In this document: piece by piece, positions 1 to 13,096 of the stretch
How positions within the stretch are numbered: position 1 is the stretch's first letter
How the letters are laid out: every line of letters starts with the position of its first letter
Assembly: GCA_041446545.1 (NCBI GenBank)
Contig: JBGOEJ010000004.1
Coordinates: 59,181-123,180 of the forward strand
Direction of reading: 5' to 3'
Length of the DNA stretch: 64,000 bases
Source: Candidatus Fervidibacter canadensis
GTDB lineage: Bacteria > Armatimonadota > Fervidibacteria > Fervidibacterales > Fervidibacteraceae
Notes under the pieces: model-generated
Databases searched by the model: none
Told to the model about the DNA's origin: nothing
The model's input: only the letters and a program-made list of their open reading frames with translations
Program-made: the position numbers and the translations under genes

Positions 1-1
1 A

Positions 2-580
2 CGGTTCAAGCGAGAAATGATTGCCGCTGGCTTTTCTGTCAATTGGAGTGTTCCAACTCTGCCTGCTAACAGCCAGCAAGCCTTAGTGGCGGAAAGCAGC
101 GAAATCATCGTGGATGCGACGATCGTTTTGGAAGAGTTCGCTTTCAAAGCCCAGCCGAGCACGGAGGCTAAAAGCATCGCTGAATGGTTGGCGGAAAATG
201 CATTTCCGCAAAGCGATGAATACAAACCCTTCCGTGAATGGCTTCCCAAACGCTTCGTGATCTTGCCTGACAATGCCTTTCGGGATTTCACTCAGTTGGC
301 GACAGAGGTCATCGCCCGCATCCGCTTGAAGCCTGAGACGAAAACGGTTGCTGAAGGCGCCTTGTGGAGTGAAGAGCACTTGCCCAGCGAAACTTTGCTT
401 TACGCTCCCATTTTCGTCAGCAAACCGCTTGCACCTAACGCCAATCAGTTGGGCTTAACTGATAGCAATGCAGTGCTGCAGGTGTTGAACAACTTGCAAC
501 TTGACCGCCTGCAAATCGGTGGCGACGAGACTGTTGGACGAGGCATTGTGAAGGTGCGATTGAATGTCCCAACTTCGTAA
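2..580 (+). CDS. cmr4: Type III-B CRISPR RAMP backbone subunit Cmr4, C-terminal part (5' end upstream of window)
   Basis: Frame is open from the window edge. C-terminal glycine-rich RAMP motif LQIGGDETVGRGIVKV. Followed by Cmr5 and Cmr6 in canonical III-B order. Confidence 0.8.
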   Translation, partial: RFKREMIAAGFSVNWSVPTLPANSQQALVAESSEIIVDATIVLEEFAFKAQPSTEAKSIAEWLAENAFPQSDEYKPFREWLPKRFVILPDNAFRDFTQLATEVIARIRLKPETKTVAEGALWSEEHLPSETLLYAPIFVSKPLAPNANQLGLTDSNAVLQVLNNLQLDRLQIGGDETVGRGIVKVRLNVPTS

Positions 581-593
581 GGAGGTGACCGCC

Positions 594-983
594 ATGACTT
601 CGGTGCTTCGGACATTGGAACAAGAACGAGCTCAACATGCGTGGAGTTGCGTGCAAGAAGTGAAAGATAAACCTTTCGCTGGCGACTACCGCACCATTGC
701 TGTTAAAGTGCCTTCGCTAATTGTGACCAACGGCTTGGGGCAAACGCTGGCATTTTTGAAGGCGAAGGGCAAGGGTGAGCCAAGCAACGAACATGAAATC
801 CTTTATCGCCACCTTGCTGATTGGGTTGGCAGTAAGGTTCACGCAGATGGCGACCTTCTGAATTGGCTTGTCAACAAAGCCGACAGCCAGCAATATCGCT
901 TGGCGACGATGGAAGCGTTGGCGCTTTTGCAATGGCTCAAACGCTTCGCCGAGGCTGAACTGCCCAAAGGGAGGGAGGAGTGA
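594..983 (+). CDS. cmr5: Type III-B small subunit Cmr5
   Basis: SD TAAGGAGGTGA just upstream of ATG 594 (the ORF-track start 564 overlaps cmr4). Small helical protein. PSLIVTNGLGQTLAFLKAKG and C-terminal LQWLKRFAEA resemble Thermus-type Cmr5 as I recall it. Lies between cmr4 and cmr6. Confidence 0.8.
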   Translation: MTSVLRTLEQERAQHAWSCVQEVKDKPFAGDYRTIAVKVPSLIVTNGLGQTLAFLKAKGKGEPSNEHEILYRHLADWVGSKVHADGDLLNWLVNKADSQQYRLATMEALALLQWLKRFAEAELPKGREE

Positions 984-1810
984 TGGGGCGACGACAGCAA
1001 CCGCAATGGCGACCACAGCAAAGGCAGCAACAACCGTCACCAGTCATCTTGCCTTTGCCCAAAGAAGTGCGCCAAGTGGCAGGCAACGGTAACCGTTGCG
1101 AAAACATTGGCTTGTGGTTGGATCGCTTTCTGACCGTCAATCAGCAAACTTGGGAACTCACTCAAGACGCAAAACGCCGTCACCGAGTGATGGAACTGGC
1201 AAATCAATCTAAAGTAAGAGAACTCGTTGACGCATTGCGAAAACGCTACGAGGCAATGTTGAAGTGGTGTGAGCGACGAGGCTTCCTTGTGAAGCGTATG
1301 AAGGCTCAACCTATTTGGCGTTTTGTCGTCGGTTTGGGGGCGGCGCATGTGTTGGAGACGGGCATAACCTTGCATCGCTTGTTCGGGTTGCCCATCGTTC
1401 CCGGAAGCGCTTTGAAAGGCGCCGCGCGGGCTTACGCAAAACTTGTGGAGGGAAAGCCTGACGACGATGCCGACCTCATCGCTGTGTTTGGGACGACCGA
1501 GAAGGCAGGAAGCGTCATCTTCTTTGACGCCATCCCTCTCAACCCGCCCAAGTTTCAACTGGACATCGTGAACCCGCACTATCCGAACTACTACCGTGAG
1601 CAAGGTGGTAAACCGCCTGCCGATTGGGAATCGCCCAGTCCCGTTTTCTTCCTGACCGTCCACGCAACGCCCTATCTTTTTGCCATCGCTGCCCGAAGCG
1701 AGCAGGGCAATCGCTTGCTTGACCTTGCTGAACAGTGGCTCAAGGGAGCGTTGAGGGAATTGGGCATCGGGGCGAAGACCAGCGCCGATTATGGCTACTG
1801 GGCGATTTGA
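983..1810 (+). CDS. cmr6: Type III-B RAMP subunit Cmr6
   Basis: ATG 983 overlaps the cmr5 stop (TGATG). Motifs NIGLWLDRFL, GLPIVPGSALKGAARAY and C-terminal GIGAKTSADYGYW glycine loop. The Gln/Arg-rich N-terminus may be spurious; in-frame GTGs at 1067 and 1076 are alternative starts. Confidence 0.8.
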   Translation: MGRRQQPQWRPQQRQQQPSPVILPLPKEVRQVAGNGNRCENIGLWLDRFLTVNQQTWELTQDAKRRHRVMELANQSKVRELVDALRKRYEAMLKWCERRGFLVKRMKAQPIWRFVVGLGAAHVLETGITLHRLFGLPIVPGSALKGAARAYAKLVEGKPDDDADLIAVFGTTEKAGSVIFFDAIPLNPPKFQLDIVNPHYPNYYREQGGKPPADWESPSPVFFLTVHATPYLFAIAARSEQGNRLLDLAEQWLKGALRELGIGAKTSADYGYWAI

Positions 1811-1823
1811 AGGAGGCGCGACC

Positions 1824-3317
1824 ATGAAGGCGCTAACTTTTCTCGGCACGGGCAAATACGAAACCGTCACTTATGTTTGGCGAGACGAGCAAGGTGAGCG
1901 GTCTTGGAAGACCCATCTTTTTCCCGAAGCCATCGCCCGCATCTTCAAGCCTGAGAAACTTATCGTCTTCGTGACCCCACAAGCAAAGGCGCACAAAAAC
2001 TTTCAAACGCTTGCGCAACGATTGGGCGATTTGATGAAGGCTGTGGACATCCCTGAGGGCAAATCGGAAGCGGAATTTTGGGAACTCTTTGAACGGGTCG
2101 CTTCGGTGGTGAGCGAGGGAGACACCATCCTTTTGGACATCACCCATGCCTTCCGATCCATCCCGACGATTGTCTTTGCCGTCGCCACTTACCTTCGGCG
2201 GGTAAAGAATGCCCGCGTGGGGGGTCCCAAACTGCCGGGCATCGTCTACGGGGCTTTTGATGCGCGGGATGAAAACAAACGAGCACCTATCTTTGACCTG
2301 ACGCCGATTTTGGATTTGTTGGATTGGTTGAGCGGAGTGGAGTTCTTCCTTCAACGCAGCGATGCTACCTTGTTGGCGGAACGGCTACAAAGTATTCACC
2401 GACAAGCGTGGCAAACTCGGTCAGGCGATGAATTGCCGAGGCACTTGCAGCCCGTCGCAAATAAGTTGCGACTGCTTTCGCAGGCTTTTCTTCTGGCACG
2501 CCCGCTTGATGTGATGCGCCACGCCCATGAGTTGCTACCGATGCTAAAAGAAATGGCTGTGGATGCAGAGAAATGGGCGAAACCTTTCGCTGCCGTTTTG
2601 GAACAAATCCGCTTGAAAGCCCAAAAGTTCGCCCACGATGCGCCTGACCGACTGGACAAGGAGAACCTGCAAAAGCAACTGGCGTTGATGGAGCATTTCG
2701 TGGAGAAAGGCTTATGGATGCAGGCGACATTGTTGGCGAGGGAATGGGTTGTCAGTTGGGTGGCGCTTCAACGGGGCAGTGGCGATTGGTTGGACAGGAA
2801 ATACCGCGAGGGTGAAATTGAGAAGGCACTCGGTGCGGCAGGGCAAAGACTTCGGCAGCCAAGCGAAGAAGTGCCTGATTGGTTTGACGAAATGCCGAAA
2901 AGCGAGGAAGTCGCCAAACTGTGGGATTGGCTCGGCGGTCTCCGCAACGATTTGGCGCATTGCGGGATGCGCAAGGACGCTGCTGGCATCGCAAGCATTG
3001 AGCAGCGGGTAAGGGAAATCCCGCAACGCCTGAAAGCGCTCATGGACGATGTGCCTGAGCGGGTGCTTTACGGCGGTCGGGTCGTCATTGACCTGAAGAA
3101 CCTTTACGGCGAGGTCGCCAAACTGGACGAACTGCCGATTTATCTTGAGCGGGCGAAGGAGTTAGCAGGGGAGGGTAACGAGGTGGTGCTGACGGGTCAA
3201 GCGCCCATTTGGCTTTACCTTGCTGTCGCCCACGCATTGCATGGCAAAACGCGTCGTTTGCTTTACGCGTCTCCGACGACTGGCGAGGTTCTCATCTTTG
3301 ACCATTCGGCACGATGA
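1824..3317 (+). CDS. csx1: CARF (DxTHG/TM1812-type) + HEPN Csx1-family cOA-activated RNase fused to a C-terminal Csx3/Crn3-like domain
   Basis: SD GAAGGAGG precedes ATG 1824. MKALTFLGTGKYETV and LLDITHAFRS (2136-2150) are the CARF DxTHG signature. LRNDLAHCG (2943-2960) is a HEPN Rx4H motif. The last 79 aa resemble Csx3. Lies immediately downstream of cmr6. Confidence 0.8.
   Translation: MKALTFLGTGKYETVTYVWRDEQGERSWKTHLFPEAIARIFKPEKLIVFVTPQAKAHKNFQTLAQRLGDLMKAVDIPEGKSEAEFWELFERVASVVSEGDTILLDITHAFRSIPTIVFAVATYLRRVKNARVGGPKLPGIVYGAFDARDENKRAPIFDLTPILDLLDWLSGVEFFLQRSDATLLAERLQSIHRQAWQTRSGDELPRHLQPVANKLRLLSQAFLLARPLDVMRHAHELLPMLKEMAVDAEKWAKPFAAVLEQIRLKAQKFAHDAPDRLDKENLQKQLALMEHFVEKGLWMQATLLAREWVVSWVALQRGSGDWLDRKYREGEIEKALGAAGQRLRQPSEEVPDWFDEMPKSEEVAKLWDWLGGLRNDLAHCGMRKDAAGIASIEQRVREIPQRLKALMDDVPERVLYGGRVVIDLKNLYGEVAKLDELPIYLERAKELAGEGNEVVLTGQAPIWLYLAVAHALHGKTRRLLYASPTTGEVLIFDHSAR
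3078..3314 (+). other. Csx3/Crn3-like (cA4 ring nuclease family) domain at the C-terminus of the Csx1 ORF
   Basis: RVVIDLKNL...VVLTGQAPIWLYLAVAHALHGKTRRLLYASPTTGEVLIFDHS aligns by eye with A. fulgidus Csx3 (AVIDRKNF...VVISGRGPIWLHCFLAHKYHHTPFVAVYDPRLGAVVVQSHS, recalled from memory). Not verified by search. Confidence 0.6.
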
Positions 3318-3449: not shown

Positions 3450-4226
3450 ATGACGCCTGTATTTGCGTTGGAAATCGCTGATGCCGAGTTGCGGGATTAC
3501 CTTGCGGTGAATTTGAGTCGCATTCAGGAACTCTTTTCACCCCGCCACCTCATCGCCTTCGGCTCTCGCGTCAACGGGACGGCAAGACCCGACAGCGACC
3601 TTGACTTGATCATCGTCTCCGATGCTTTTGAAGGCATCCCTTTTGGGGAGCGGTCAAGGCGGTTCAACGAACTAATTCCTTGGCATCTGCGGGTGGATGC
3701 ATGGTGTTTGACGGTGAAGGAGTTTGAAGTGCAGCGAAGGCAAGTAAGTTTGGTGGTGCAGGCGTGTCGGGAAGGGGTTTGGATTTTGAGGGGAGAGTTT
3801 TTGCCTGATAGTGAGGTGAACGGCGTCATGACACCAGAGGAGCAGGCGCGGGAATTGATGGCGCAAGGCGATCATGATTTGGCTGCCGCCAGAGCCAACT
3901 TCAATCTTGACCTTTACGACATCGCCACTTTCCTCGCCCAGCAAGCGGCGGAGAAGTTTTTAAAGGCGTTGTATCTTTTCCGTTTCCAGACCCTTCCGCC
4001 TCGAACTCATGACTTGGAGCGCTTAGCCAATGCCTTGGGGGCGCCTCCTGAGATCGTGGCGTTGGGGAGACCGCTGACGGATGATTACATCCGAAGCCGA
4101 TATGGGGATGCAGCGGGGATGGCGCCCTACAAACTTTTTGATGCTGCCATCGCTCAAGAACGCCTTCAACAAGCCGAAAAAATTCGTGAGTGGGTGCAAA
4201 GTTGCCTTTCAGGGGCGCAACCGTGA
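3450..4226 (+). CDS. Single-chain nucleotidyltransferase (Pol-beta/MNT type) + HEPN domain protein (KNTase-like architecture)
   Basis: N-terminal LIAFGSRVNGTARPDSDLDLIIV (GS...DxD NTase motif). C-terminal HEPN PF05168-type signatures AAEKFLKALYL, THDLERL and YIRSRYGD. Confidence 0.75.
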   Translation: MTPVFALEIADAELRDYLAVNLSRIQELFSPRHLIAFGSRVNGTARPDSDLDLIIVSDAFEGIPFGERSRRFNELIPWHLRVDAWCLTVKEFEVQRRQVSLVVQACREGVWILRGEFLPDSEVNGVMTPEEQARELMAQGDHDLAAARANFNLDLYDIATFLAQQAAEKFLKALYLFRFQTLPPRTHDLERLANALGAPPEIVALGRPLTDDYIRSRYGDAAGMAPYKLFDAAIAQERLQQAEKIREWVQSCLSGAQP

Positions 4227-4265: not shown

Positions 4266-4295
4266 TTAACCGAATGGGCGTTGGGTGCTTATAAT
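4266..4295 (+). promoter_or_regulatory. Candidate sigma-70-type promoter for spoVR
   Basis: -35 TTAACC (4266-4271), 18-nt spacer, perfect -10 TATAAT (4290-4295). SD GAGGTGA (4309-4315) and ATG 4321 lie downstream. Confidence 0.35.
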
Positions 4296-4320
4296 TGCTG
4301 GCGACAGCGAGGTGAACGCC

Positions 4321-7008
4321 ATGAGTTTGCCGCCTGAACTGGAGAAGGCGCGGCGGGAGATAGAGGCGATTGCCCGCGACTACGGGTTGGACTTTTTCCC
4401 TGTCGTCTTTGAGTTGGTCAGTTACAAGCAGATGCACCAACTCGCTGCTTACACGGGCTTCCCCGTCCGCTATCCTCATTGGCGCTGGGGCATGGAGTAT
4501 GAGCGCATCCGCAAGAGTTACACCTACGGCTTGCAGGTCATCCACGAGATGGTCATCAACAACAATCCTTGCTACGCCTACTTGCTCTCCAACAACACGA
4601 TGCTGGAGCACAAGATGGTCATGGCGCATGTCTATGCCCACGCCGACTTTTTCAAGAACAACCAATGGTTCGCCCACACCAACCGAAAGATGCTGGACGA
4701 GATGGCGAACCACGCCGTCCGCGTGCAACGCTACATTGAACGCTATGGCGAGGAGCGGGTGGAGAGTTTCATTGACCTTTGCCTGTCCATTGAGGACATG
4801 ATTGACTTCCACGCTGCTCATGTCAAACGCTATCCCGCCCCCGACGAGGGCGAAAGTGAAGACCCTGAAGCGCCCGTCACCACTGTGCCCCGATTGCCCA
4901 GCAAATCTTACTTGGACAAGTGGGTGAACCCGCCAGAGTTTTTGGAGGAGTTGCGCCAATTGCGCCAGCGCCGCCGCCAAGCCCAACGCAAGTTCCCACC
5001 CCGTCCCGAAAAAGACCTGCTGCTCTTTCTGATTCAACATGCCCCGCTGGAAGAGTGGCAGCGCGATATCTTGTCCATCATCCGCGAGGAGAGTTACTAC
5101 TTCGCCCCGCAGATGATGACGAAGATTCTCAACGAAGGTTGGGCTTGTGTCGTCGGCGACACGCTGGTCTTCACCGACCGAGGTCTCTTGCCGATGCGCG
5201 ACATCGTGGCTCAAAAGTTGCCTGTGAGGGTGCAGGACGGGGAAGAGATGCAGCGCGTTTACGATTGGGCGCATTTCGTTAATCGCCAGACCGTTTGGGT
5301 GCGGACGAAGCGGGGGTTGGAACTGGAAGGAAGCACGACCCACCGCCTCCTGATGGCGGATGGCTCTTGGAAACCGTTGGGAGAAGTGGTCGTCGGCGAT
5401 CGGGTGCGCATTTCCGGCGGGCATAACCTTTGGGCGAAGGAGTATGTCGCCGTGCGATGGCGACCTGTCCAACGGCTGACACTGGAGCGAGTCGCTGAAC
5501 TGGCGGGCGTCCATCCCAGCACCATCATCCGCTTCCGAAAGGGACGCCATAGCGTCCATGCCGACCGCATCGCCCCTGTCTTGGCAGTTTACGAAGAGGA
5601 AATGAGGCAAGGGCACACGAACCCTAACCATCGCCAACGAATCAAAGTGCCGAAAGTTGTGGACGAAAGTTTAGCGGCTTTTCTGGGTTATCTCATCGGG
5701 GACGGGCACATCAGTGAGCGGAAGCGAGTGGTTGGGTTCACCAACAGTGACGGGGAATTGGCGTTTCGTTTCGCCTCGTTGGGCGAGAGGCTCTTTGGCA
5801 TCCAGCCAAGGTGCTGGCAGGACGGCAGTCGCTGGCGGGTGAACTTTTACGCCCAAGACTTGATTGACCTGCTCAAGCATCTTGGCTTGCCGACAGGCAT
5901 GGCAGCACGACAAAAAACCGTCCCACCCGTCATCTTGTGCTCTCCCAAATCGGTTGTCGTTGCTTTCCTTCGGGCGCTGTTTGATTGCGACGCTTATGCG
6001 GGTGAAAGCGGTGTCATCTTCTCCACCAGCAGCGAAGAGATGGGGAAGGTGGTGCAATTGTTGCTGCTGAACTTTGGCATCCTTTCCGCCCGGCGTCGCT
6101 GTCCTGATGGGTGTTGGCGGGTGCAAATCGCTGGCAAGTCAGCCCTGACTTTTGAGCGGGAAATCGGCTTTGGGTTGGAACGGAAGCGCCAAGCCCTTCG
6201 CCGCTACCTTGCCGAGCATCTCTGGTTCAAAGAGGAACGATGGGACGACGAGATCGTGGCAGTGGAGAGGAGGCGGGCGGATGTTTACGACATCTCCGTG
6301 ACGAAGACCCACCGTTATGTGGCGGCAGGCTTTATCAACCACAACAGTTTCTGGCACAGCAAAATCATGACGGAGCGGGTGCTCAAGGACGAGGAGTTGA
6401 TTGACTACGCCGACCGCCACGCAGCGGTGACGGCGGCAGCGCCAGGGGTTCTCAACCCTTACAAACTGGGCTTGGAGTTGCTGCGGGACATCAAGGAACG
6501 GTGGGATAAGGGGCGGTTCGGCAAAGAGTATGAGGAGTGCGACGACTTGGCATTGAAAGGGGCGTGGGACAAGGGGCTCGGTTTGGGGATGGCGAAACTC
6601 TTTGAGGTTCGGCGCGTCCACAACGATGTCACCTTCATTGATGCCTTCCTGACCGAAGAGTTCGTCCGCAAGCACAAACTGTTCACTTACGACTTCAACC
6701 GCTACACAGGCGCTTACGAAATCAGCAGCCGCCAATTTGAGACGGTCAAGCAAAAGTTGCTCTTTCTGCTGACCAACTGTGGTCGTCCTATCATTTGGGT
6801 CGTGGACGGCAATTATCGCAATCGGGGCGAACTTTACCTTTGGCATCAGCATGAGGGCGTGGACTTGCGCTGGGATTACGCCGTTGAGACGACCAAAAAC
6901 ATTCACGCCCTTTGGAAGCGCCCTGTGCATTTGGAGACGGTCAAAAACGGGCGAAAGGTGCGGTTGAGTGTGCTGGACAAAGACCGCGTGCAAGAGGAAG
7001 TCCTTTAG
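4321..7008 (+). CDS. spoVR: SpoVR/YcgB-family protein interrupted in frame by an intein
   Basis: N-extein DFFPVVFELVSYKQMHQLAAYTGFPVRYPHWRWGMEYE, NNNPCYAYLL, HVYAHADFFKNN, PPRPEKDLLLF and ILNEGWA. C-extein SFWHSKIM...LNPYKLGLELLRDI. All match SpoVR as I recall B. subtilis SpoVR. ATG 4321 has an SD. Confidence 0.9.
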   Translation: MSLPPELEKARREIEAIARDYGLDFFPVVFELVSYKQMHQLAAYTGFPVRYPHWRWGMEYERIRKSYTYGLQVIHEMVINNNPCYAYLLSNNTMLEHKMVMAHVYAHADFFKNNQWFAHTNRKMLDEMANHAVRVQRYIERYGEERVESFIDLCLSIEDMIDFHAAHVKRYPAPDEGESEDPEAPVTTVPRLPSKSYLDKWVNPPEFLEELRQLRQRRRQAQRKFPPRPEKDLLLFLIQHAPLEEWQRDILSIIREESYYFAPQMMTKILNEGWACVVGDTLVFTDRGLLPMRDIVAQKLPVRVQDGEEMQRVYDWAHFVNRQTVWVRTKRGLELEGSTTHRLLMADGSWKPLGEVVVGDRVRISGGHNLWAKEYVAVRWRPVQRLTLERVAELAGVHPSTIIRFRKGRHSVHADRIAPVLAVYEEEMRQGHTNPNHRQRIKVPKVVDESLAAFLGYLIGDGHISERKRVVGFTNSDGELAFRFASLGERLFGIQPRCWQDGSRWRVNFYAQDLIDLLKHLGLPTGMAARQKTVPPVILCSPKSVVVAFLRALFDCDAYAGESGVIFSTSSEEMGKVVQLLLLNFGILSARRRCPDGCWRVQIAGKSALTFEREIGFGLERKRQALRRYLAEHLWFKEERWDDEIVAVERRRADVYDISVTKTHRYVAAGFINHNSFWHSKIMTERVLKDEELIDYADRHAAVTAAAPGVLNPYKLGLELLRDIKERWDKGRFGKEYEECDDLALKGAWDKGLGLGMAKLFEVRRVHNDVTFIDAFLTEEFVRKHKLFTYDFNRYTGAYEISSRQFETVKQKLLFLLTNCGRPIIWVVDGNYRNRGELYLWHQHEGVDLRWDYAVETTKNIHALWKRPVHLETVKNGRKVRLSVLDKDRVQEEVL
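5146..6345 (+). mobile_element. Class-1 intein (400 codons) with LAGLIDADG homing-endonuclease domain, inserted in spoVR
   Basis: Starts with Cys (CVVGDTLVF). TTHRLL is block B (TxxH). LAGLIDADG motifs LAAFLGYLIGDGHI (~5671-5712) and VVAFLRALFDCDAY (~5953-5997). Ends ...VAAGFINHN with Ser at +1. Splits the normally contiguous SpoVR motif NEGWA|SFWH. Confidence 0.85.
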
Positions 7009-7478: not shown

Positions 7479-10022
7479 TCACGACGCCTTCAAGCGATAA
7501 ATGCCACCCGCCTTTGTCTCAAACTCCGTCACGAAAGTGACAGGCAAATCAGGGCGAGAGGTAGCCCAACGCTCTGGGGCGACAAACGAGACAGGTGGTT
7601 GAGGTTTAAGGAGTGGGTTGGGAACTTCGCCCTTCGGCTCTCGCACCTTTGCTCCGACCACTTGGACGGGCACGGTTGTTTTGACCCGACAAACGCCGCC
7701 GAGGTGTGAGCGGATAGCCGCTTCCTTCAGTTGCCCACCTTGCCAAAGGATGTCCACCTCAAAGCCGCCCCGCGCCCGCAAGCCCTTGACAAAACCGTCC
7801 CGCCACGCTTTGGGCAACGCAGGCAACAGATGCAACTCACCATCGTGGCTTTGAAGGAGCATCTCGGCAATTCCCCCACAGCCGCCGAAGTTGCCGTCAA
7901 TCTGAAAGGGCGGATGGTTGTCAAAGAGGTTCGGCAAGGTAGAACGGCGCAGCAACAGCAGCAAGTTTTCGTAGGCTTTCTCGCCATCCAACAACCGCGC
8001 AAAGAGGTTGACCGTCCAAGCGCGGCTCCATCCCGTCGCTCCGCCACCGTGAGCCAACCGATGTTCCAAAGAGCGACGCGCCGCCATCGCCAAAGCGGGT
8101 GTCCGCCAGACGGAAATTTGCCTGCCAGGGTGCAAGCCGAAAAGGTGCGACATATGCCGATGACCTGGTTCGGGTTCGTCAAACTCTTCGTGCCACTCCA
8201 TCAACCGACCGTCGCTGCCAATTTTCAGCGGCTCCAGTTCAGCGAGGCGTTGTTTCAGTTGCTCCCGCAACTCTTCGTCCACACCGAGGAAGGTTGCCGC
8301 CTCTATGCAGTTGCAAAAGAGGTCGTGAATCAGTTGCAAGTCCATCGCACTGCCGATGCAGAAACTGGCTTCCTGCCCATCTTTAGTTCGGAAGGCGTTT
8401 TCGGGCGAGAGGGACGGGCAAGTCGTCCATTTGCCCGTCGTTGGGTTGCGCACCATCCAGTCCAGCAAAAAGAGCGCCGCTTCCCGCAGGATGGGGTAAG
8501 TTCGCTCCAAAAACTTGCGGTCGCCCGTGAACAAAAAGTGCTCCCACAAGTGTTGACATAGCCACGCACCACCCATGACCCACAAGCCATAACGCGGAGC
8601 GGCGTCAACGGGAACGGTCACTCGGAAGATGTCAGTGTTGTGATGCAGAACCCAACCGCGACAGCCGTAATGCCCCCTTGCGACTTTTCTGCCCGGCTCA
8701 ACCGACTCGGCGATCAGGCGCAAAAGGGGTTCGTGGCATTCGCTCAAATTCGTCGTCTCGGCTGCCCAGTAATTCATCTCGGCGTTGATGTTCGTCGTCC
8801 ACTTGCTGCCCCAAGGCGGTGTCGTGCTTTCGTTCCAGACGCCTTGCAAATTTGCTGGCTGCGTGCCGGGGCGACTACTGGCGATGAGCAGGTAGCGACC
8901 GAACTGAAAGTAAAGGGCGACCAAGCCGGGGTCTTCTGCGCCACCTTGCACCGCTTTCAATCGCTCGTCGGTCGGCAACTCTTCCAACCTCTCGTCGTGC
9001 CCCAAATCAATGTCCACACGCCGAAAGAACCGTTGATGGTCAGCGATGTGGGCGCTTTTTAGTTGGCGGTAACTTTTGCGGCGCAAGGAAGCGAAATAAT
9101 CGGCACAGCGTTGACGGGGGTCGGCAGAAATGTCTTGATAGTTGCGGTAACTCGTTGCGGCAACGAGGAGCAAAGTGACGGCGTTAGCCTCCTTGACCGT
9201 CAACGCTTCCCCGCTCACTTCCACCTTGCCACCTTTTGCTTGCGCCGCCAGCCAGATTTCAAAGCGGATGCCTTTGCCGGGCAAATCTGTTTGGCTTCTG
9301 CGCACTTCGCCATCGCCAACCCATTGCCCCCGCAAGATGAGCCAGTTATCACCGCCCTTCAGCGTCTCATGGTTGGGATGGGGCGTGGTGAGGCGGGCAG
9401 TGAAGGTGACTTGTTTGGGCTTGTCGGCAACGATGCGACAGACAAGGGCTTGGTCAACGGCAGAAATGAACATTTCGCGGGCGAAGGTGATTTCGCCGAT
9501 GCGATAGCGGATGCGAGCGATGGCTTCGTCCAAGTCCAATTCCCGCCGATACTCTGTCGGCTCGGCATCATGAGGGAACGAAAGCCAAAGGTCACCGAGG
9601 GGCTGATAAGCCATCAAGCGGCGAAAAGGGGCATAAAGGCGGTCGCCGATTTTCAAGACGCCCATCATCTTCTGGTCGGCGAGTTGCTCCGCCTCCCGAT
9701 ACTTGCCCGCAAAGACAAGTCGGCGCACTTGCTCAAGGGAAGCAAAGGCGTCGGGGTTGGTGGGGTCGTAAGGGTAACCCGACCACATCGTGTCCTCATT
9801 GAGTTGCAAGCGCTCCTGAGCGACACCGCCAAAGACCATCGCCCCCATCCGCCCGTTGCCTAAAGGCAGGGCTTCATTCCAGTGGCGAGCGGGCTGACGA
9901 TACCAAAGCACCCAACGCCTTCCCGACACTTTCGCCTTCTCCGACGAACTTTTCGCCACCGTTATCACTCCTTTCGCTGCCATCGCTGTCAAGCCCAACC
10001 GCAGCAATGCCCGACGCTTCAT
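7479..10022 (-). CDS. Glycoside hydrolase family 95 (alpha-L-fucosidase-type), secreted
   Basis: [43 protein letters not shown] is the GH95 N-terminal signature. KRRALLRLG is a twin-arginine-like signal. Confidence 0.85.
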
Positions 10023-10143: not shown

Positions 10144-11385
10144 ATGAAAATCACGGAGGTTCGGGTGTTCGTCGTCAACCCGACGGCGACGGAGCGGTTT
10201 GAGGGCATCGGGCATTTGTATCGGCGGGGCGGGATGAACTATGTCGTCGTCAAGGTGCTGACGGATGAAGGCGTTTACGGCGTCGGCGAAGGGACGCTTC
10301 ATGCCAGCGAACTGGCGGTCGCCGCCGTGCTCCATCACTTGAAAGACCTGCTCATCGGCAAAGACCCCCGCAACATTGAAGACACTTGGCACTTCCTCCA
10401 TCGCGCCACCTATTGGCGGGGCGGTCCGATTTTCAAGAGCGCCATCGCCGCCATTGACATGGCGCTTTGGGACATCAAGGGCAAATTGGCGAACATGCCC
10501 GTTTACCAGTTGCTGGGTGGGGCGTGCCGAAAGGGAGTTTTGGTCTACCGCCACGCCGACGGGCGCGACTTCAAGGAAGTCACCGACAATGTGCGCAAGT
10601 GGCTGGAGCAGGGCTACAAGGTCGTGCGGGCGCAAATGGGTGGCTACGGGGGTTCGGGCAAATTGCGCTCTGAGCCATCCGAACGGGAAGGACTGCCGGG
10701 CACGACTTACTTTGAGCCAACCCGCTACTTGATTGAAGTGCCCAAACTCTTTGAGCACCTTCGCAGCGAACTGGGCATGGAGGTGGAGTTGCTCCACGAT
10801 GTCCACGAGCAACTTTCCCCCATTGAAGCCGCTCAACTGGCAAAACGCTTGGAGCCTTATCGCTTGTTTTTCCTTGAAGACCCTGTCTCGCCAGAGCAAA
10901 AAGAGGCGTTGGCGTTCATCCGCTCGCAAACGACGACGCCATTAGCCATCGGCGAAATCTTTTGCGACCGCGAACAAATCCTCCCGCTCTTTATCAACCG
11001 ATGGATTGACTACATTCGTATCCCGCCGTTGCATGTCGGCGGCATCACGGAGTCCAAAAAACTGATGGCGCTGGCGGAACCTTTCGGGGTCAAGTCAGCC
11101 TTTCATGGCGCTGCCGATTTGGGTCCGATCGCACAGGCAGCGGCGCTCCATGTGCAAATGTCCATCCCTAACTTTGGCGTGCAGGAGTGGACGGACTTTC
11201 GCAGCGTTCCCGTTTTGTGCGACTTGTTCCCGACGCCCTGCGAGGTGCGAGACGGTTACGCTTACCCCAACGAGGCGCCCGGGTTGGGCATTGATTTCAA
11301 CGAGGAGTTGGCGGAACGCTTCCCGTATGTGCCGACCTACATGCCCCAAATTCGGCGCGCCGACGGGACGGTGCATGGCTATTGA
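10144..11385 (+). CDS. Enolase-superfamily acid-sugar dehydratase, D-mannonate dehydratase (ManD) subgroup
   Basis: MKITEVRVFVV..., RNIEDTWHFLHRATYWRGGPIFKSAIAAIDMALWDIKGKLANMPVYQLLGG closely resembles ManD/RspA-type proteins. Confidence 0.85.
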   Translation: MKITEVRVFVVNPTATERFEGIGHLYRRGGMNYVVVKVLTDEGVYGVGEGTLHASELAVAAVLHHLKDLLIGKDPRNIEDTWHFLHRATYWRGGPIFKSAIAAIDMALWDIKGKLANMPVYQLLGGACRKGVLVYRHADGRDFKEVTDNVRKWLEQGYKVVRAQMGGYGGSGKLRSEPSEREGLPGTTYFEPTRYLIEVPKLFEHLRSELGMEVELLHDVHEQLSPIEAAQLAKRLEPYRLFFLEDPVSPEQKEALAFIRSQTTTPLAIGEIFCDREQILPLFINRWIDYIRIPPLHVGGITESKKLMALAEPFGVKSAFHGAADLGPIAQAAALHVQMSIPNFGVQEWTDFRSVPVLCDLFPTPCEVRDGYAYPNEAPGLGIDFNEELAERFPYVPTYMPQIRRADGTVHGY

Positions 11386-13096
11386 CAAAATCGGGCAACG
11401 CCGACGGCGGGAGGTGAAAGCCGTGACGGCACAACGGACGGGGTATGTCATCGGTGTGGATGTCGGGACGATGAGCGTTCGGGCGGGCGTGTTTGCCTTG
11501 GACGGGACGATGTTGGCGCACGCCGTTGAATTCATCCAAATCGCCCGACCCAGAGAAAATTTCGTGGAGCAATCCTCCGACGAAATTTGGGAGGCGACGG
11601 GACGGGCAGTGCGGGCTGCTGTCGCTAATGCCGGCATTCGCCCTAAGCAAGTTATCGGCATCAGTTACGACGCCACCTGCTCGTTGGTGGCATTGGGCAA
11701 AGACCTTCGTCCCATCTCTGTCTCGCCGACAGGCGACCCAAAGTGGAACATCATCGTTTGGATGGATCACCGCGCCGTTGAATTCGCCGACCGCATCAAT
11801 GCGACTTGTCATCCTGTCCTGCGATATGTCGGTGGCGTCATCTCACCAGAGATGGAGCCGCCCAAATTGCTTTGGCTCAAGCACTACCTGCCCGAAACTT
11901 GGCGGCAGGCGGGCAAATTTTTTGACCTCGCCGACTTTATGGTCTTTCAATCCACTGGGCACGATGTCCGCAGCCTTTGCACCGTCGTCTGCAAGTGGCT
12001 GTATCTTGGGCACGAGGGGCGATGGGACAGGAGTTTCTACGAGCAAATCGGGTTAGGCGATTTGTTGGATGGTGAGCGGGTGAGGGACGAAGTTCGTCCG
12101 ATGGGCGAATGGGCAGGCAACTTGACGCAAGAAGCCGCTGAACATTTGGGCTTGACAACCGACACAGCCGTCGGCGTCGGCATCATTGACGCCCATGCAG
12201 GAGGGATCGGGTTGCTGGGCGCTGTTTGGAAAGACGAAGGTGTGGACGGGGCGCCCTTAGAGACGCTGGAAATCGCTTTGGCGCTCATCGGCGGGACCTC
12301 CTCATGCCACATGGCAGTTTCCCGTGAGCCCAAGTTTGTGCCCGGCGTTTGGGGACCTTACTTTGGGGCGATGGTGCCGAACATGTGGCTGACAGAAGGG
12401 GGACAAAGTGCCACAGGCGCCCTCATTGACTATGTCGTCACCAACAACGCTCAATGGACGACCCTGCAGCGGATGGCAGCAGAACGCAACATGACCTTTT
12501 ACGAAATCCTCAACGACATCGTCTTGCGTTTGCAACGGGAGACAGGTTTGGGTTGGCGGTTGACGAGGGACTTGCATGTTTTGGACTACCATCACGGCAA
12601 CCGTTCGCCCAAAGCCGACCCATACGCCAAAGGGGTCGTGGACGGCTTGACGCTGGAAACTTCCCTGGAAGCCGTCGCAAAACTCTATTACGCCACCATC
12701 CAAGCCATCGCTTATGGGACGAGGGACATCATAGAGACGATAAACCGACACGGACATCGCATCCGACGCATCTATGCGACGGGCGGTGGGACGAAAAACC
12801 CTCTTTGGCTTCAAGAGCACGCCGACATCACGGAAAGCGAAATTCGCTTGCCCAAAGAGCCCGAGGCAGTGCTGTTGGGGACGGCAATTTTGGCAGCAGT
12901 GGCGGCGAAAGCCTACCCTGACATCCCGACGGCGATGCGGGCGATGTGCCACACGGGTGACATCATCCGACCCCGCCCCGAAACCTTTGACTTTCACCGC
13001 GCTAAGTTCGCCATCTACCGTGAAATGTATGAGGAGCACCTGCGCCGACGACAGCGGATGGCGCCTTTCATGGGAAGGCAGGTGAAACGCCCATGA
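11375..13096 (+). CDS. FGGY-family pentulose/ribulokinase-like carbohydrate kinase
   Basis: YVIGVDVGTMSVRAGVF, EQSSDEIW, DATCSLV, IVWMDHRA, SPEMEPPKLLWLK and CTVVCKW. Start is uncertain: ATG 11375 overlaps the manD end, and a GTG near 11414-11423 lies after GGGAGGTG. The ORF-track start 11105 was rejected. Confidence 0.85.
   Translation: MAIDKIGQRRRREVKAVTAQRTGYVIGVDVGTMSVRAGVFALDGTMLAHAVEFIQIARPRENFVEQSSDEIWEATGRAVRAAVANAGIRPKQVIGISYDATCSLVALGKDLRPISVSPTGDPKWNIIVWMDHRAVEFADRINATCHPVLRYVGGVISPEMEPPKLLWLKHYLPETWRQAGKFFDLADFMVFQSTGHDVRSLCTVVCKWLYLGHEGRWDRSFYEQIGLGDLLDGERVRDEVRPMGEWAGNLTQEAAEHLGLTTDTAVGVGIIDAHAGGIGLLGAVWKDEGVDGAPLETLEIALALIGGTSSCHMAVSREPKFVPGVWGPYFGAMVPNMWLTEGGQSATGALIDYVVTNNAQWTTLQRMAAERNMTFYEILNDIVLRLQRETGLGWRLTRDLHVLDYHHGNRSPKADPYAKGVVDGLTLETSLEAVAKLYYATIQAIAYGTRDIIETINRHGHRIRRIYATGGGTKNPLWLQEHADITESEIRLPKEPEAVLLGTAILAAVAAKAYPDIPTAMRAMCHTGDIIRPRPETFDFHRAKFAIYREMYEEHLRRRQRMAPFMGRQVKRP

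What the first reader, a model, noticed from the sequence alone, without database searches (positions are those of the whole stretch)
1824..3317. Type III-B ancillary effector fuses a CARF(DxTHG)-HEPN Csx1 to a C-terminal Csx3/Crn3-like ring-nuclease domain
Seen in sequence:
- One uninterrupted 497-codon ORF lies directly after cmr6.
- MKALTFLGTGKYETV and LLDITHAFRS (2136-2150) give the DxTHG-type CARF signature.
- LRNDLAHCG (2943-2960) is a canonical HEPN Rx4H motif.
- The last 79 residues (3078-3314) align motif for motif with A. fulgidus Csx3 as I remember it: VVIDLKNL / AVIDRKNF; VVLTGQAPIWLYLAVAHALHG / VVISGRGPIWLHCFLAHKYHH; Y.SP..GEVLIFDHS / YDPRLGAVVVQSHS.

Established knowledge: Cas10 makes cyclic oligoadenylates. 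CARF-HEPN Csx1/Csm6 are cOA-activated RNases. Csx3/Crn3 degrades cA4. Effector-ring-nuclease fusions have precedent (Csx1-Crn2).

Inference: this is an effector with a built-in off-switch. The Csx3 module is short, and the Asp after the conserved Tyr in my recalled alignment is Ala here. It could therefore be a binding-only sensor rather than a nuclease. I cannot tell whether this exact three-module architecture has been described.
Basis: partly seen in the sequence, partly recalled or inferred. Interest (0 to 1): 0.7.

Follow-up and report, generated by a model that had tools for sequence, protein, structure and literature searches.

The report
Csx1 RNase fused to Csx3-like module
This gene encodes a CRISPR type III helper RNase (Csx1) with a small Csx3/Crn3-like domain fused to its end, probably a built-in off-switch for the cA4 alarm signal; the architecture is already catalogued and widespread among thermophiles, but nobody has tested it and two catalytic residues of the known enzyme are missing.

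Summary
A 497-codon ORF (1824-3317, +) with a good Shine-Dalgarno site follows cmr4-cmr5-cmr6. It has a DxTH-type CARF domain, an invariant HEPN R-x4-H motif and a C-terminal ~80-residue Csx3-family domain. That domain passes Pfam's threshold, gives hhalign probability 96%, and its AlphaFold model finds only A. fulgidus Csx3/Crn3 as the top nine PDB hits.

The architecture is not new. PADLOC-DB holds a profile named 'CARF2--CARF_HEPN_CSX3', and the protein matches it end to end (E 2e-196). More than 100 full-length relatives exist, in 34 species-representative genomes of many, mostly thermophilic, phyla. I found no biochemical study of it.

New detail: the fused module belongs to a separate short Csx3 subfamily.
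- It keeps the His triad (H57/H60/H80 equivalents).
- It replaces D69, R71 and R46 with Ser, Thr/Val and Gln. These residues are invariant or nearly so in 77 stand-alone Csx3 proteins, and D69 and R71 are needed for AfCsx3 activity.
- It lacks the C-terminal strand.
- It is the most conserved part of the protein.
- It also occurs as ~80-100 aa stand-alone genes next to Can2/Card1-type effectors.

The most likely function is a self-limiting cA4-activated RNase. Whether the module cleaves cA4 or only binds it is open.

The parts
1..580 (+). 3' part of cmr4 (type III-B RAMP); the gene starts upstream of the window
   Evidence: TIGR02580 Cmr4 equivalog, 112 bits (cut-off 87), matching profile positions 134-283 of 283.
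564..983 (+). cmr5
   Evidence: PF09701 E 2e-38; TIGR01881 86.5 bits (cut-off 27.9).
980..1810 (+). cmr6 (RAMP)
   Evidence: TIGR01898 158 bits (cut-off 51.1).
1810..1817 (+). Shine-Dalgarno-like GAAGGAGG, 7 nt upstream of the ATG at 1824
   Evidence: Read directly from the sequence.
1824..3317 (+). csx1-csx3 fusion gene, 497 aa plus stop (CARF - helical domain - HEPN - Csx3-like)
   Evidence: ORF. End-to-end match to PADLOC PDLC01844 CARF2--CARF_HEPN_CSX3, E 2.2e-196. AF2 model pLDDT 91. Best PDB fold match is 8Y6Z Csx1-Crn2, E 7e-16.
1824..2390 (+). CARF sensor domain (about aa 1-189)
   Evidence: TIGR02221 cas_TM1812 116.9 bits (cut-off 76.25). Residues 4-178 align to the CARF of Csx1-Crn2 8Y75/8Y7G.
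2136..2150 (+). DxTH motif, here D105-I-T-H-A109
   Evidence: TIGR02549 36.3 bits (cut-off 21). D105 and T107 are invariant and H108 and A109 are at least 90% conserved in 100 relatives. Coordinates.
2391..2720 (+). helical middle domain (about aa 190-299; approximate borders)
   Evidence: Precomputed Pfam PF27248 MJ1674_2nd on homologues. All-helical in the AF2 model. Corresponds to the HTH domain of Csx1-Crn2.
2721..3047 (+). HEPN RNase domain (about aa 300-408; approximate borders)
   Evidence: PADLOC Csx1/Csm6 CARF+HEPN profiles cover aa 1-409. Close Csx1 relatives without the extra module end at about aa 405-410.
2943..2960 (+). HEPN catalytic motif R374-N-D-L-A-H379 (R-x4-H)
   Evidence: Coordinates. 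R374, N375 and H379 are invariant in 100 relatives.
3072..3314 (+). Csx3/Crn3-like module (aa 417-497), a short subtype with one helix between each of strands 1-3 and a hairpin joining strands 3 and 4
   Evidence: PF09620 27.9 bits (cut-off 21). hhalign probability 96.3%. Domain model pLDDT 91.9. Foldseek ranks 1-9 are AfCsx3, TM 0.57-0.62. It is the most conserved part of the protein.
3192..3212 (+). T457-G458-Q459-A-P-I-W463 loop, equivalent to the AfCsx3 S44-G45-R46-G-P-I-W50 cA4-binding loop; R46 is Gln here
   Evidence: Alignments; conservation; role of the AfCsx3 residues from PMC7371418.
3231..3242 (+). H470 and H473, equivalent to AfCsx3 H57 and H60
   Evidence: Invariant in 109 fused proteins and in 77 stand-alone Csx3 proteins. 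H60A abolishes AfCsx3 activity.
3270..3278 (+). S483-P484-T485, in the place of AfCsx3 D69-P70-R71; the catalytic Asp and Arg are absent
   Evidence: hhalign and phmmer alignments. S483 and P484 are invariant and position 485 is V or T in the fused clade. D69, P70 and R71 are 77/77 in stand-alone Csx3.
3300..3305 (+). D493-H494; H494 is equivalent to AfCsx3 H80, and the protein ends 3 residues later
3450..4226 (+). downstream gene: a nucleotidyltransferase and a HEPN domain in one polypeptide (MNT-HEPN type); link to the CRISPR locus unproven
   Evidence: PF01909 E 6.5e-10 and PF05168 E 7.6e-24. The same neighbour is found in the closest genome locus L006.

Best explanation
The gene encodes a cyclic-oligoadenylate-activated Csx1 ribonuclease of a type III-B (Cmr) CRISPR system that carries its own Csx3/Crn3-family module.

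Proposed mechanism:
1. The Cmr complex recognises target RNA, and Cas10 makes cA4.
2. cA4 binds the dimeric CARF domain (aa 1-~189) and switches on the HEPN RNase (R374/H379).
3. The C-terminal module (aa 417-497) also binds cA4 and most likely cleaves it in a metal-dependent reaction that uses the conserved His triad (H470, H473, H494).
4. RNase activity therefore needs a cA4 threshold and shuts itself off, as in Csx1-Crn2.

Crn3 sandwiches cA4 between two stacked dimers, and the Crn2 domains of Csx1-Crn2 pair in trans. The fusion therefore probably works as a dimer of dimers or a larger assembly.

Shown here: domain architecture, homology, fold, residue conservation and genomic context. Inferred: cA4 specificity, ring-nuclease activity and oligomeric state.
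For: Architecture and membership:
- End-to-end match to PADLOC CARF2--CARF_HEPN_CSX3, E 2.2e-196.
- TIGR02221 and the DxTHG model are both above cut-off.
- The HEPN R-x4-H motif is invariant.
- The full-length AF2 model (pLDDT 91) best matches the cA4-activated Csx1-Crn2 (8Y6Z, E 7e-16), then SisCsx1 and TtCsm6.

The C-terminal module is Csx3 family: Pfam above threshold, hhalign probability 96.3%, and Foldseek ranks 1-9 all AfCsx3/Crn3.

The module is under stronger purifying selection than the rest of the protein. Mean column identity is 0.88-0.91 against about 0.6 elsewhere. It is nearly unchanged even in relatives that are only 40% identical overall.

H57, H60 and H80, whose only known roles in Crn3 are on the catalytic, Mn-linked face, are invariant in the fused clade. 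The T-G-x-x-P-I-W cA4-binding loop is also kept.

The same short subtype exists as real stand-alone genes of 80-84 aa. These lie immediately after Can2/Card1-type CARF effectors in Csm and Cmr loci, the typical position of a ring nuclease.

Context: synteny cmr4-cmr5-cmr6-fusion recurs in about 13 other loci, and a GGDD-containing (cyclase-competent) Cas10-size ORF is seen in about 13 loci with the fusion. Ring nucleases are found only with cA4 effectors (PMC12409355).
Against: - D69 and R71 are invariant in 77/77 stand-alone Csx3 proteins. D69A kills AfCsx3 and R71A strongly reduces it. Here they are Ser483 (invariant) and Thr/Val485, and R46 is Gln459.
- The module ends 3 residues after the H80 equivalent, so it lacks the last ~18 residues of Csx3. 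It has one N-terminal strand where Csx3 has a hairpin.
- It fails the NCBIfam Crn3/Csx3 equivalog cut-off (24-28 bits against 55.4).
- A candidate substitute acidic residue, E488, is conserved in the fused clade but not in the stand-alone short proteins.
- No biochemical data exist for any member in the literature I could search.
- cas10 of this locus lies outside the window.
Confidence: 0.55

Rival explanations
1. The Csx3-like module binds cA4 but does not cleave it. It would act as a built-in buffer that sets an activation threshold, or as a cA4-dependent stacking surface that drives Csx1 into tetramers or filaments, which are needed for full HEPN activity.
For: - The catalytic D69 and R71 of Crn3 are replaced, as is R46, while the main-chain and loop elements that hold cA4 (T-G-x-x-P-I-W) are kept.
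- Catalytically dead AfCsx3 H60A still binds cA4 and forms fibres.
- In Csx1-Crn2 the C-terminal domain is required for tetramerisation, HEPN integrity and more than 10-fold of the RNase activity.
- The module fails the NCBIfam equivalog cut-off.
Against: - The His triad, which has no known binding-only role, is invariant in 109 fused proteins and mostly kept in the stand-alone short proteins.
- The same module occurs as a free-standing gene beside an unrelated effector (Can2/Card1). That fits a diffusible enzyme better than an assembly surface tailored to Csx1.
Confidence: 0.3
2. The module is only a structural oligomerisation or stabilisation domain that has lost nucleotide binding altogether. 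Signal removal, if any, would be done by the CARF domain itself or by another protein.
For: - Several canonical Csx3 features are lost (D69, R71, R46 and the C-terminal strand).
- Many Csx1/Csm6 CARF domains degrade their own activator (PMC12409355).
- Close Csx1 relatives (52-63% identical) work without the module.
Against: - The ligand-loop and His residues are extremely conserved.
- The module exists as a stand-alone gene in ring-nuclease position.
- A purely structural role would not explain invariant surface His residues.
Confidence: 0.1
3. The Csx3 resemblance is a chance or compositional match, and the C-terminal 80 residues are just an extension of the HEPN domain.
For: Single-sequence matches are weak: phmmer against PDB gives E 0.003-0.04, and the NCBIfam score is below cut-off.
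Against: - Pfam is above its gathering score.
- The PADLOC Csx3 profile gives E 1e-11.
- Profile-profile probability is 96.3%.
- A confident independent fold model has AfCsx3 as all nine top PDB hits.
- Csx1 relatives end cleanly before the module.
Confidence: 0.01

Closest known systems
PADLOC-DB profile PDLC01844 'CARF2--CARF_HEPN_CSX3' (the name follows the CARF-superfamily classification of Makarova et al. 2020, which I could not read)
   Same: Same three-part architecture. The window protein matches residues 1-496 to profile positions 1-464 of 464, E 2.2e-196.
   Different: Nothing at the level of architecture. The window protein is simply a member, with its closest genome relative 89% identical (Ca. 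Fervidibacter sp.). The catalogue entry carries no functional data.
Marinitoga Csx1-Crn2 fusion (PDB 8Y6Z/8Y7G; Samolygo et al. 2020, Zhang et al. 2024)
   Same: It is the best sequence and fold match for the CARF-helical-HEPN body. It follows the same design logic: a cA4-activated RNase with a cA4-handling domain fused to its C-terminus. It is a tetramer through the C-terminal domains.
   Different: The appended domain there is Crn2/DUF1874, which is unrelated in fold and metal-independent. Here it is Csx3 family. Overall identity is only about 15-20%.
Archaeoglobus fulgidus Csx3/Crn3 (AF1864; PDB 3WZI, 6VJG, 6YUD)
   Same: Same fold core (Foldseek ranks 1-9, TM about 0.6). Shared G-x-x-P-I-W loop and the H57, H60, H80, P70 and G73 equivalents.
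   Different: D69 is Ser, R71 is Thr/Val and R46 is Gln. There is no C-terminal strand after H80, and a single N-terminal strand replaces the hairpin. The module is fused rather than free. It scores about 25 bits on a stand-alone Csx3 HMM against about 160 on its own family HMM, with no intermediates seen.
Csx1 fused to Csx16, Csx20 or Unk01/Crn4 (predicted or shown ring nucleases)
   Same: Sibling architectures in the same catalogue (PDLC01842, 01843, 01845). Their Csx1 parts match this protein at E 1e-18 to 1e-58. Such fusions are taken in the literature as indicators of a regulatory role.
   Different: A different appended domain family.
Csx3-AAA and AAA-Csx3 proteins (Shah et al. 2019 clusters 35 and 67; Synechocystis Slr7080)
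   Same: A Csx3 domain fused to another domain in type III loci.
   Different: The partner is an AAA ATPase of unknown function rather than an effector RNase. Those proteins carry canonical Csx3 domains: 98-103 bits on the stand-alone HMM in L071, L077 and L082.

Membership tests
Csx1 (CARF-HEPN cOA-activated RNase) | N-terminal CARF domain of the DxTHG/TM1812 type | tested here: met
   TIGR02221 116.9 bits (cut-off 76.25) and TIGR02549 36.3 bits (cut-off 21). The motif reads D-I-T-H-A.
Csx1 (CARF-HEPN cOA-activated RNase) | C-terminal HEPN domain with an R-x4-6-H catalytic motif | tested here: met
   R374-NDLA-H379; R374, N375 and H379 are invariant in 100 relatives. PADLOC Csx1/Csm6 CARF+HEPN, E 7e-97.
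Csx1 (CARF-HEPN cOA-activated RNase) | Fold like solved Csx1/Csm6 structures | tested here: met
   Foldseek: 8Y6Z E 7e-16 (TM 0.67), 6QZT SisCsx1 E 9e-11, TtCsm6 E 5e-8.
Csx1 (CARF-HEPN cOA-activated RNase) | cA4-dependent RNA cleavage | not testable with these tools
   Needs an enzyme assay.
Csx1 (CARF-HEPN cOA-activated RNase) | Encoded in or next to a type III CRISPR-Cas effector operon | tested here: met
   Lies directly after cmr4-cmr5-cmr6. The same synteny, with a GGDD Cas10, is seen in Rhodothermus profundi and others.
Csx3/Crn3 ring nuclease | Match to the Pfam Cas_csx3 (PF09620) domain above the gathering score | tested here: met
   23.5 bits (whole protein) and 27.9 bits (module alone), against a cut-off of 21.
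Csx3/Crn3 ring nuclease | NCBIfam TIGR02579 equivalog score (functional equivalence to Crn3/Csx3) | tested here: not met
   24.1-27.9 bits against a cut-off of 55.4.
Csx3/Crn3 ring nuclease | Csx3 fold | tested here: met
   Domain model pLDDT 91.9. Foldseek ranks 1-9 are AfCsx3, E 2e-3 to 3e-2, probability 0.99-1.00, TM 0.57-0.62. The match is to the core only.
Csx3/Crn3 ring nuclease | His triad of the 'H60 face' (H57, H60, H80) | tested here: met
   H470 and H473 are 109/109 and H494 is 108/109 in the fused clade. H57, H60 and H80 are 77/77 in stand-alone Csx3.
Csx3/Crn3 ring nuclease | Catalytic D69 and R71 on the cA4-binding face (D69A inactive, R71A strongly impaired) | tested here: not met
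   They align to S483 (109/109 Ser) and T485 (Val or Thr). D69 and R71 are 77/77 in stand-alone Csx3.
Csx3/Crn3 ring nuclease | cA4-contacting S44-G45-R46 loop | tested here: inconclusive
   T457 and G458 are kept, but R46 (75/77 Arg) is Gln459 (107/109).
Csx3/Crn3 ring nuclease | Full-length domain including the C-terminal strand after H80 (G86 nearly invariant) | tested here: not met
   The protein ends 3 residues after H494.
Csx3/Crn3 ring nuclease | Mn2+-dependent cleavage of cA4 in a head-to-tail tetramer | not testable with these tools
   Needs biochemistry or a multimer-plus-ligand model.
CARF2 'CARF_HEPN_CSX3' architecture (PADLOC PDLC01844) | End-to-end match to the family profile | tested here: met
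   Residues 1-496 match profile positions 1-464 of 464, 651 bits, E 2.2e-196.
Csx1-Crn2 fusion | C-terminal Crn2/AcrIII-1 (DUF1874) domain | tested here: not met
   The Pfam scan at E up to 1 finds only Cas_csx3 in the C-terminal part, and the module's fold matches Csx3.

The most novel reading that the evidence does not exclude
The short 'S-P-x-x-G' Csx3 subtype, whether fused to Csx1 as here or free-standing beside Can2/Card1, may be a mechanistically distinct class. One possibility is a ring nuclease with a re-wired active site: the His triad plus residues other than the D69-R71 pair. The other is a non-catalytic module whose cA4-mediated stacking polymerises Csx1 and so acts as an on-switch or threshold device rather than an off-switch.
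Probability: 0.2. Interest if true: 0.6.

Novelty: new member of a known kind. Interest (0 to 1): 0.3.

Why it matters
Ring nucleases decide whether a type III CRISPR response ends in recovery or in dormancy or death. Fusing one to the effector is the simplest way to make the response self-limiting.

Only the Csx1-Crn2 fusion has been studied, among the papers I could search. The Csx1-Csx3 architecture is at least as widespread: 34 species-representative genomes across Armatimonadota, Rhodothermus, Chloroflexota, Acidobacteriota, Bacillota, Caldatribacterium, Bipolaricaulota and others.

The 2025 ring-nuclease survey would have missed it, because that survey used a 250-aa length limit. Counts of type III loci 'without a ring nuclease' may therefore be too high.

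The missing D69 and R71 make this family a natural test of how much of the Crn3 active site is really required. None of this changes the overall picture of type III signalling, so the importance is moderate and mainly for specialists.

Tried and rejected
- Chance similarity of the C-terminus to Csx3: rejected.
- A start at the upstream ATG (1791): rejected, because homologues begin at MKAL and the SD site precedes 1824.
- A decaying relic domain: rejected, because the module is the most conserved part of the protein.
- A split csx1 + csx3 arrangement in the close Csx1 relatives that lack the module (Archaeoglobaceae and others): none found within 8 kb. Canonical csx3-domain genes lie next to only three distant Csx1 relatives (L071, L077, L082).
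- E488 as a universal replacement for D69: conserved in the fused clade but not in the stand-alone short proteins, so only weakly supported.
- A CRISPR array or any Rfam family in the window: none found.
- A paper describing a Csx1-Csx3 fusion: none in the held library. Makarova et al. 2020 and Brown et al. 2020 are not held, so I cannot say what they state about it.
- Model coordinates are not exposed, so I could not measure which side chains occupy the D69 and R71 positions. No multimer or ligand model could be built.
Full report
**1. What is in the sequence**

It runs from 1824 to 3317 on the + strand and encodes 497 codons plus a stop. An in-frame ATG at 1791 would add 11 residues. However, all relatives start at MKA(L/I)(T/S)FLGTG, and GAAGGAGG sits 7 nt before the ATG at 1824, so 1824 is the start.

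The three genes upstream are the 3' part of cmr4, then cmr5 and cmr6. Each scores above its NCBIfam equivalog cut-off. The window begins inside the cmr operon, so cas10 is not visible. No CRISPR array and no Rfam family is present anywhere in the 64 kb.

The best match among species-representative genomes is a Candidatus Fervidibacter sp. MAG (Armatimonadota), 89% identical at the protein level. It has the same neighbours on both sides.

**2. The Csx1 body**

- Residues 1-~189 are a CARF domain of the TM1812/DxTHG type: TIGR02221 at 116.9 bits (cut-off 76.25) and TIGR02549 at 36.3 bits (cut-off 21).
- The motif at 2136-2150 reads D-I-T-H-A rather than DxTHG.
- The HEPN motif R374-N-D-L-A-H379 lies at 2943-2960. 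R374, N375 and H379 are invariant in an alignment of 100 relatives.
- An AlphaFold2 model built on that alignment is confident (pLDDT 91, pTM 0.79).
- Its best PDB match is the Marinitoga Csx1-Crn2 fusion (8Y6Z, E 7e-16, TM 0.67). Next come Sulfolobus islandicus Csx1 and the cA4-activated Thermus Csm6.
- By sequence, too, the best solved relative is Csx1-Crn2.

**3. The C-terminal module is Csx3 family**

Five independent tests agree:
- Pfam Cas_csx3 is above its gathering score: 27.9 bits for the module alone, E 2e-6.
- The PADLOC Csx3 profile PDLC01040 gives E 1e-11.
- phmmer finds only A. fulgidus Csx3 chains in the PDB (E 0.003).
- A profile of the module from 109 fused proteins aligns to a profile of 77 stand-alone Csx3 proteins with hhalign probability 96.3% and E 1.6e-9 over 46 columns.
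- A domain-only AlphaFold model (pLDDT 91.9), built only from fused-family sequences, returns AfCsx3/Crn3 structures as ranks 1-9 in Foldseek (TM 0.57-0.62). CARF domains rank below them.

**4. The architecture is already catalogued and common**

PADLOC-DB (2023) contains a profile named CARF2--CARF_HEPN_CSX3. The window protein matches it from residue 1 to 496 over all 464 profile positions, at E 2.2e-196. Sibling profiles exist for CARF_HEPN_CSX16, _CSX20, _Unk_f1 and _CARF.

In the 5.8-billion-protein collection, 355 relatives were found. More than 100 clusters cover the full length at 50% identity or more, and many carry the precomputed Pfam pair PF27248 (MJ1674_2nd) plus PF09620.

Among GTDB species representatives, 34 genome loci encode the fused form. 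They come from Fervidibacter and other Armatimonadota, Rhodothermus, Thermoflexus and Chloroflexota, Acidobacteriota including Pyrinomonas, Moorellaceae and other Bacillota, Caldatribacterium, Bipolaricaulota, Poribacteria and Dehalococcoidia. Source names in the protein search add Bathyarchaeia and Sulfolobales.

In roughly a third of these loci the gene follows cmr4-cmr5-cmr6 as it does here. A Cas10-size ORF with the GGDD cyclase motif is seen in a similar number. In others, such as Ca. Fervidibacter sacchari PD1 and Acetomicrobium, the gene heads a type I cassette.

I found no paper in the searchable library that describes or tests a Csx1-Csx3 fusion:
- Reviews list Csx1 fusions to Crn2, Csx16, Csx20 and Unk01, and Csx3 fusions to AAA ATPases.
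- The 2025 ring-nuclease census used a 250-aa upper length limit, which would exclude this protein.
- Makarova et al. 2020, from which the PADLOC name evidently derives, is not held.

**5. The module is a distinct, short Csx3 subtype**

In 77 stand-alone Csx3 proteins, W50, H57, H60, D69, P70, R71, G73 and H80 are invariant, and R46 is Arg in 75. In AfCsx3 (PMC7371418):
- H60A and D69A abolish ring-nuclease activity.
- R71A and H80A strongly reduce it.
- S44, G45, R46, I49 and R71 contact cA4.

In the fused clade the picture is mixed:
- The His triad is kept: H470 and H473 are 109/109 and H494 is 108/109.
- The loop is T457-G458-Q459-A-P-I-W463.
- D69 aligns to an invariant Ser (S483), R71 to Thr or Val (485), and R46 to Gln (107/109).

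The module also ends three residues after the H80 equivalent, whereas stand-alone Csx3 continues for about 18 residues. It has one N-terminal strand and a longer first helix where Csx3 has a hairpin. It fails the NCBIfam Crn3/Csx3 equivalog cut-off (24-28 bits against 55.4).

It is not degenerating. It is the most conserved part of the protein, with mean column identity 0.88-0.91 against about 0.6 elsewhere. It is almost unchanged in relatives that share only 40% identity overall. On HMMs, fused modules score about 25 bits against the stand-alone family and about 140-170 against their own, with nothing in between.

**6. The same subtype exists as a free-standing gene**

An exhaustive profile search of 1.84 billion representatives with the module found 236 proteins (120 at E of 1e-10 or better). 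Many are 75-130 aa proteins that start with Met right at the first strand and end in (V/I)(I/V)FDH, the same ending as the fusion. In 41 such short proteins the S-P pair, Y440, the T-G...P.W loop, H470, H473 and D/N493-H494 are mostly conserved. Position 459 is variable, and position 488 is acidic in fewer than half.

I looked up two of them, and both are genuine genes in type III loci. P0215 (84 aa) lies 14 nt after a Can2/Card1-type effector (CARF_Card1 plus Card1 endonuclease) at the end of a csm operon. P0257 (80 aa) overlaps the end of a CARF_Card1-domain gene a few genes downstream of a cmr operon.

PADLOC has no dedicated profile for these. They score best on the C-terminal 80 positions of the fusion profile (77-131 bits) and only 37-58 bits on the general Csx3 profile, where canonical Csx3 scores 75-147.

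Close Csx1 relatives without the module also exist (Archaeoglobaceae and others, 52-63% identical, ending at about residue 405-410). They have no csx3 gene within 8 kb. The module is thus a mobile accessory unit that pairs with different cA4 effectors, either in cis or in trans.

**7. How it most likely works**

Shown by the evidence: a complete, conserved Csx1 RNase with an appended Csx3-family module, encoded in a Cmr locus. The rest is inferred from relatives.

Inferred signal:
- The signal is probably cA4. The nearest solved relatives (Csx1-Crn2, SisCsx1, TtCsm6) use cA4, and Crn3 is cA4-specific.
- Ring nucleases are found only with cA4 effectors.

Inferred role and assembly:
- The module most likely binds cA4 and degrades it, giving a self-limiting RNase like Csx1-Crn2.
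- Crn3 forms its active site between two stacked dimers.
- The C-terminal domains of Csx1-Crn2 sit 45 A apart and pair in trans to make a tetramer that the HEPN domain needs for integrity.
- A dimer-of-dimers or larger assembly is therefore likely here too.

The invariant His triad and the ring-nuclease-like position of the stand-alone form favour catalysis. The loss of D69, R71 and R46 and of the last strand argues for altered chemistry or for binding only. My estimates:

| Explanation | Probability |
|---|---|
| Active off-switch | about 0.55 |
| cA4 binding without cleavage (buffer or cA4-driven assembly) | about 0.3 |
| Purely structural domain | about 0.1 |

**8. Verdict**

The architecture is not new. 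It is a named, widespread family, and the window gene is one more member. What remains open, and is of moderate specialist interest, is this: the family's Csx3 module belongs to a separate short subtype that lacks two residues essential in the only characterised Crn3, and no member has been tested.

Noticed in passing
window 4285-7008 (+): A 907-aa SpoVR-like protein (PF04293, E 2.5e-129, split into two stretches) is interrupted by an intein carrying a LAGLIDADG homing endonuclease (PF14528 E 1.5e-20; intein splicing domain PF14890).
   Followed up: partly
window 3450-4226 (+): The gene directly after csx1-csx3 encodes a nucleotidyltransferase (PF01909) and a HEPN domain (PF05168, E 7.6e-24) in one 258-aa polypeptide, a fused MNT-HEPN toxin-antitoxin-like arrangement. 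The same neighbour follows the fusion gene in the closest genome locus L006. It is unknown whether it is functionally linked to the CRISPR locus.
   Followed up: partly
L083 6001-6255 (also L084, L085); P0257 locus (no DNA held): Free-standing 80-84 aa proteins of the same short Csx3 subtype (S-P instead of D-P-R, ending in IFDH) lie immediately after Can2/Card1-type CARF effector genes in type III-A and III-B loci. PADLOC has no specific profile for them.
   Followed up: partly
L011 7992-15480 (Ca. Fervidibacter sacchari PD1); L003 10001-16889 (Acetomicrobium): In these genomes the csx1-csx3 gene is not behind cmr6. It heads a type I cassette: an unannotated ~500-530 aa protein, then Cas7/DevR, Cas5 and Cas3. 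In Acetomicrobium a Cas_NE0113 CARF protein precedes it.
   Followed up: no
L071 7082-7981, L077 7089-7982, L082 9002-9967: Canonical Csx3 domains (98-103 bits on the stand-alone HMM) inside ~300-aa ORFs lie directly next to distant Csx1 relatives (29-33% identity). These are probably the longer Csx3-fusion proteins described in the literature.
   Followed up: no
window 1-64000: There is no CRISPR array, no tRNA-like or other Rfam family, and only one trivial tandem repeat in the whole window. Downstream of the cmr/csx1 genes the window turns to carbohydrate metabolism: a GH95 glycosidase at 7479-10022 (-), an enolase-superfamily enzyme at 10144-11385 and an FGGY kinase at 11105-13096.
   Followed up: partly
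P0280 (1659 aa, representative library): A very long protein matched the last 18 profile positions of the module in 10 separate stretches. This is probably a repeat-driven spurious match.
   Followed up: no
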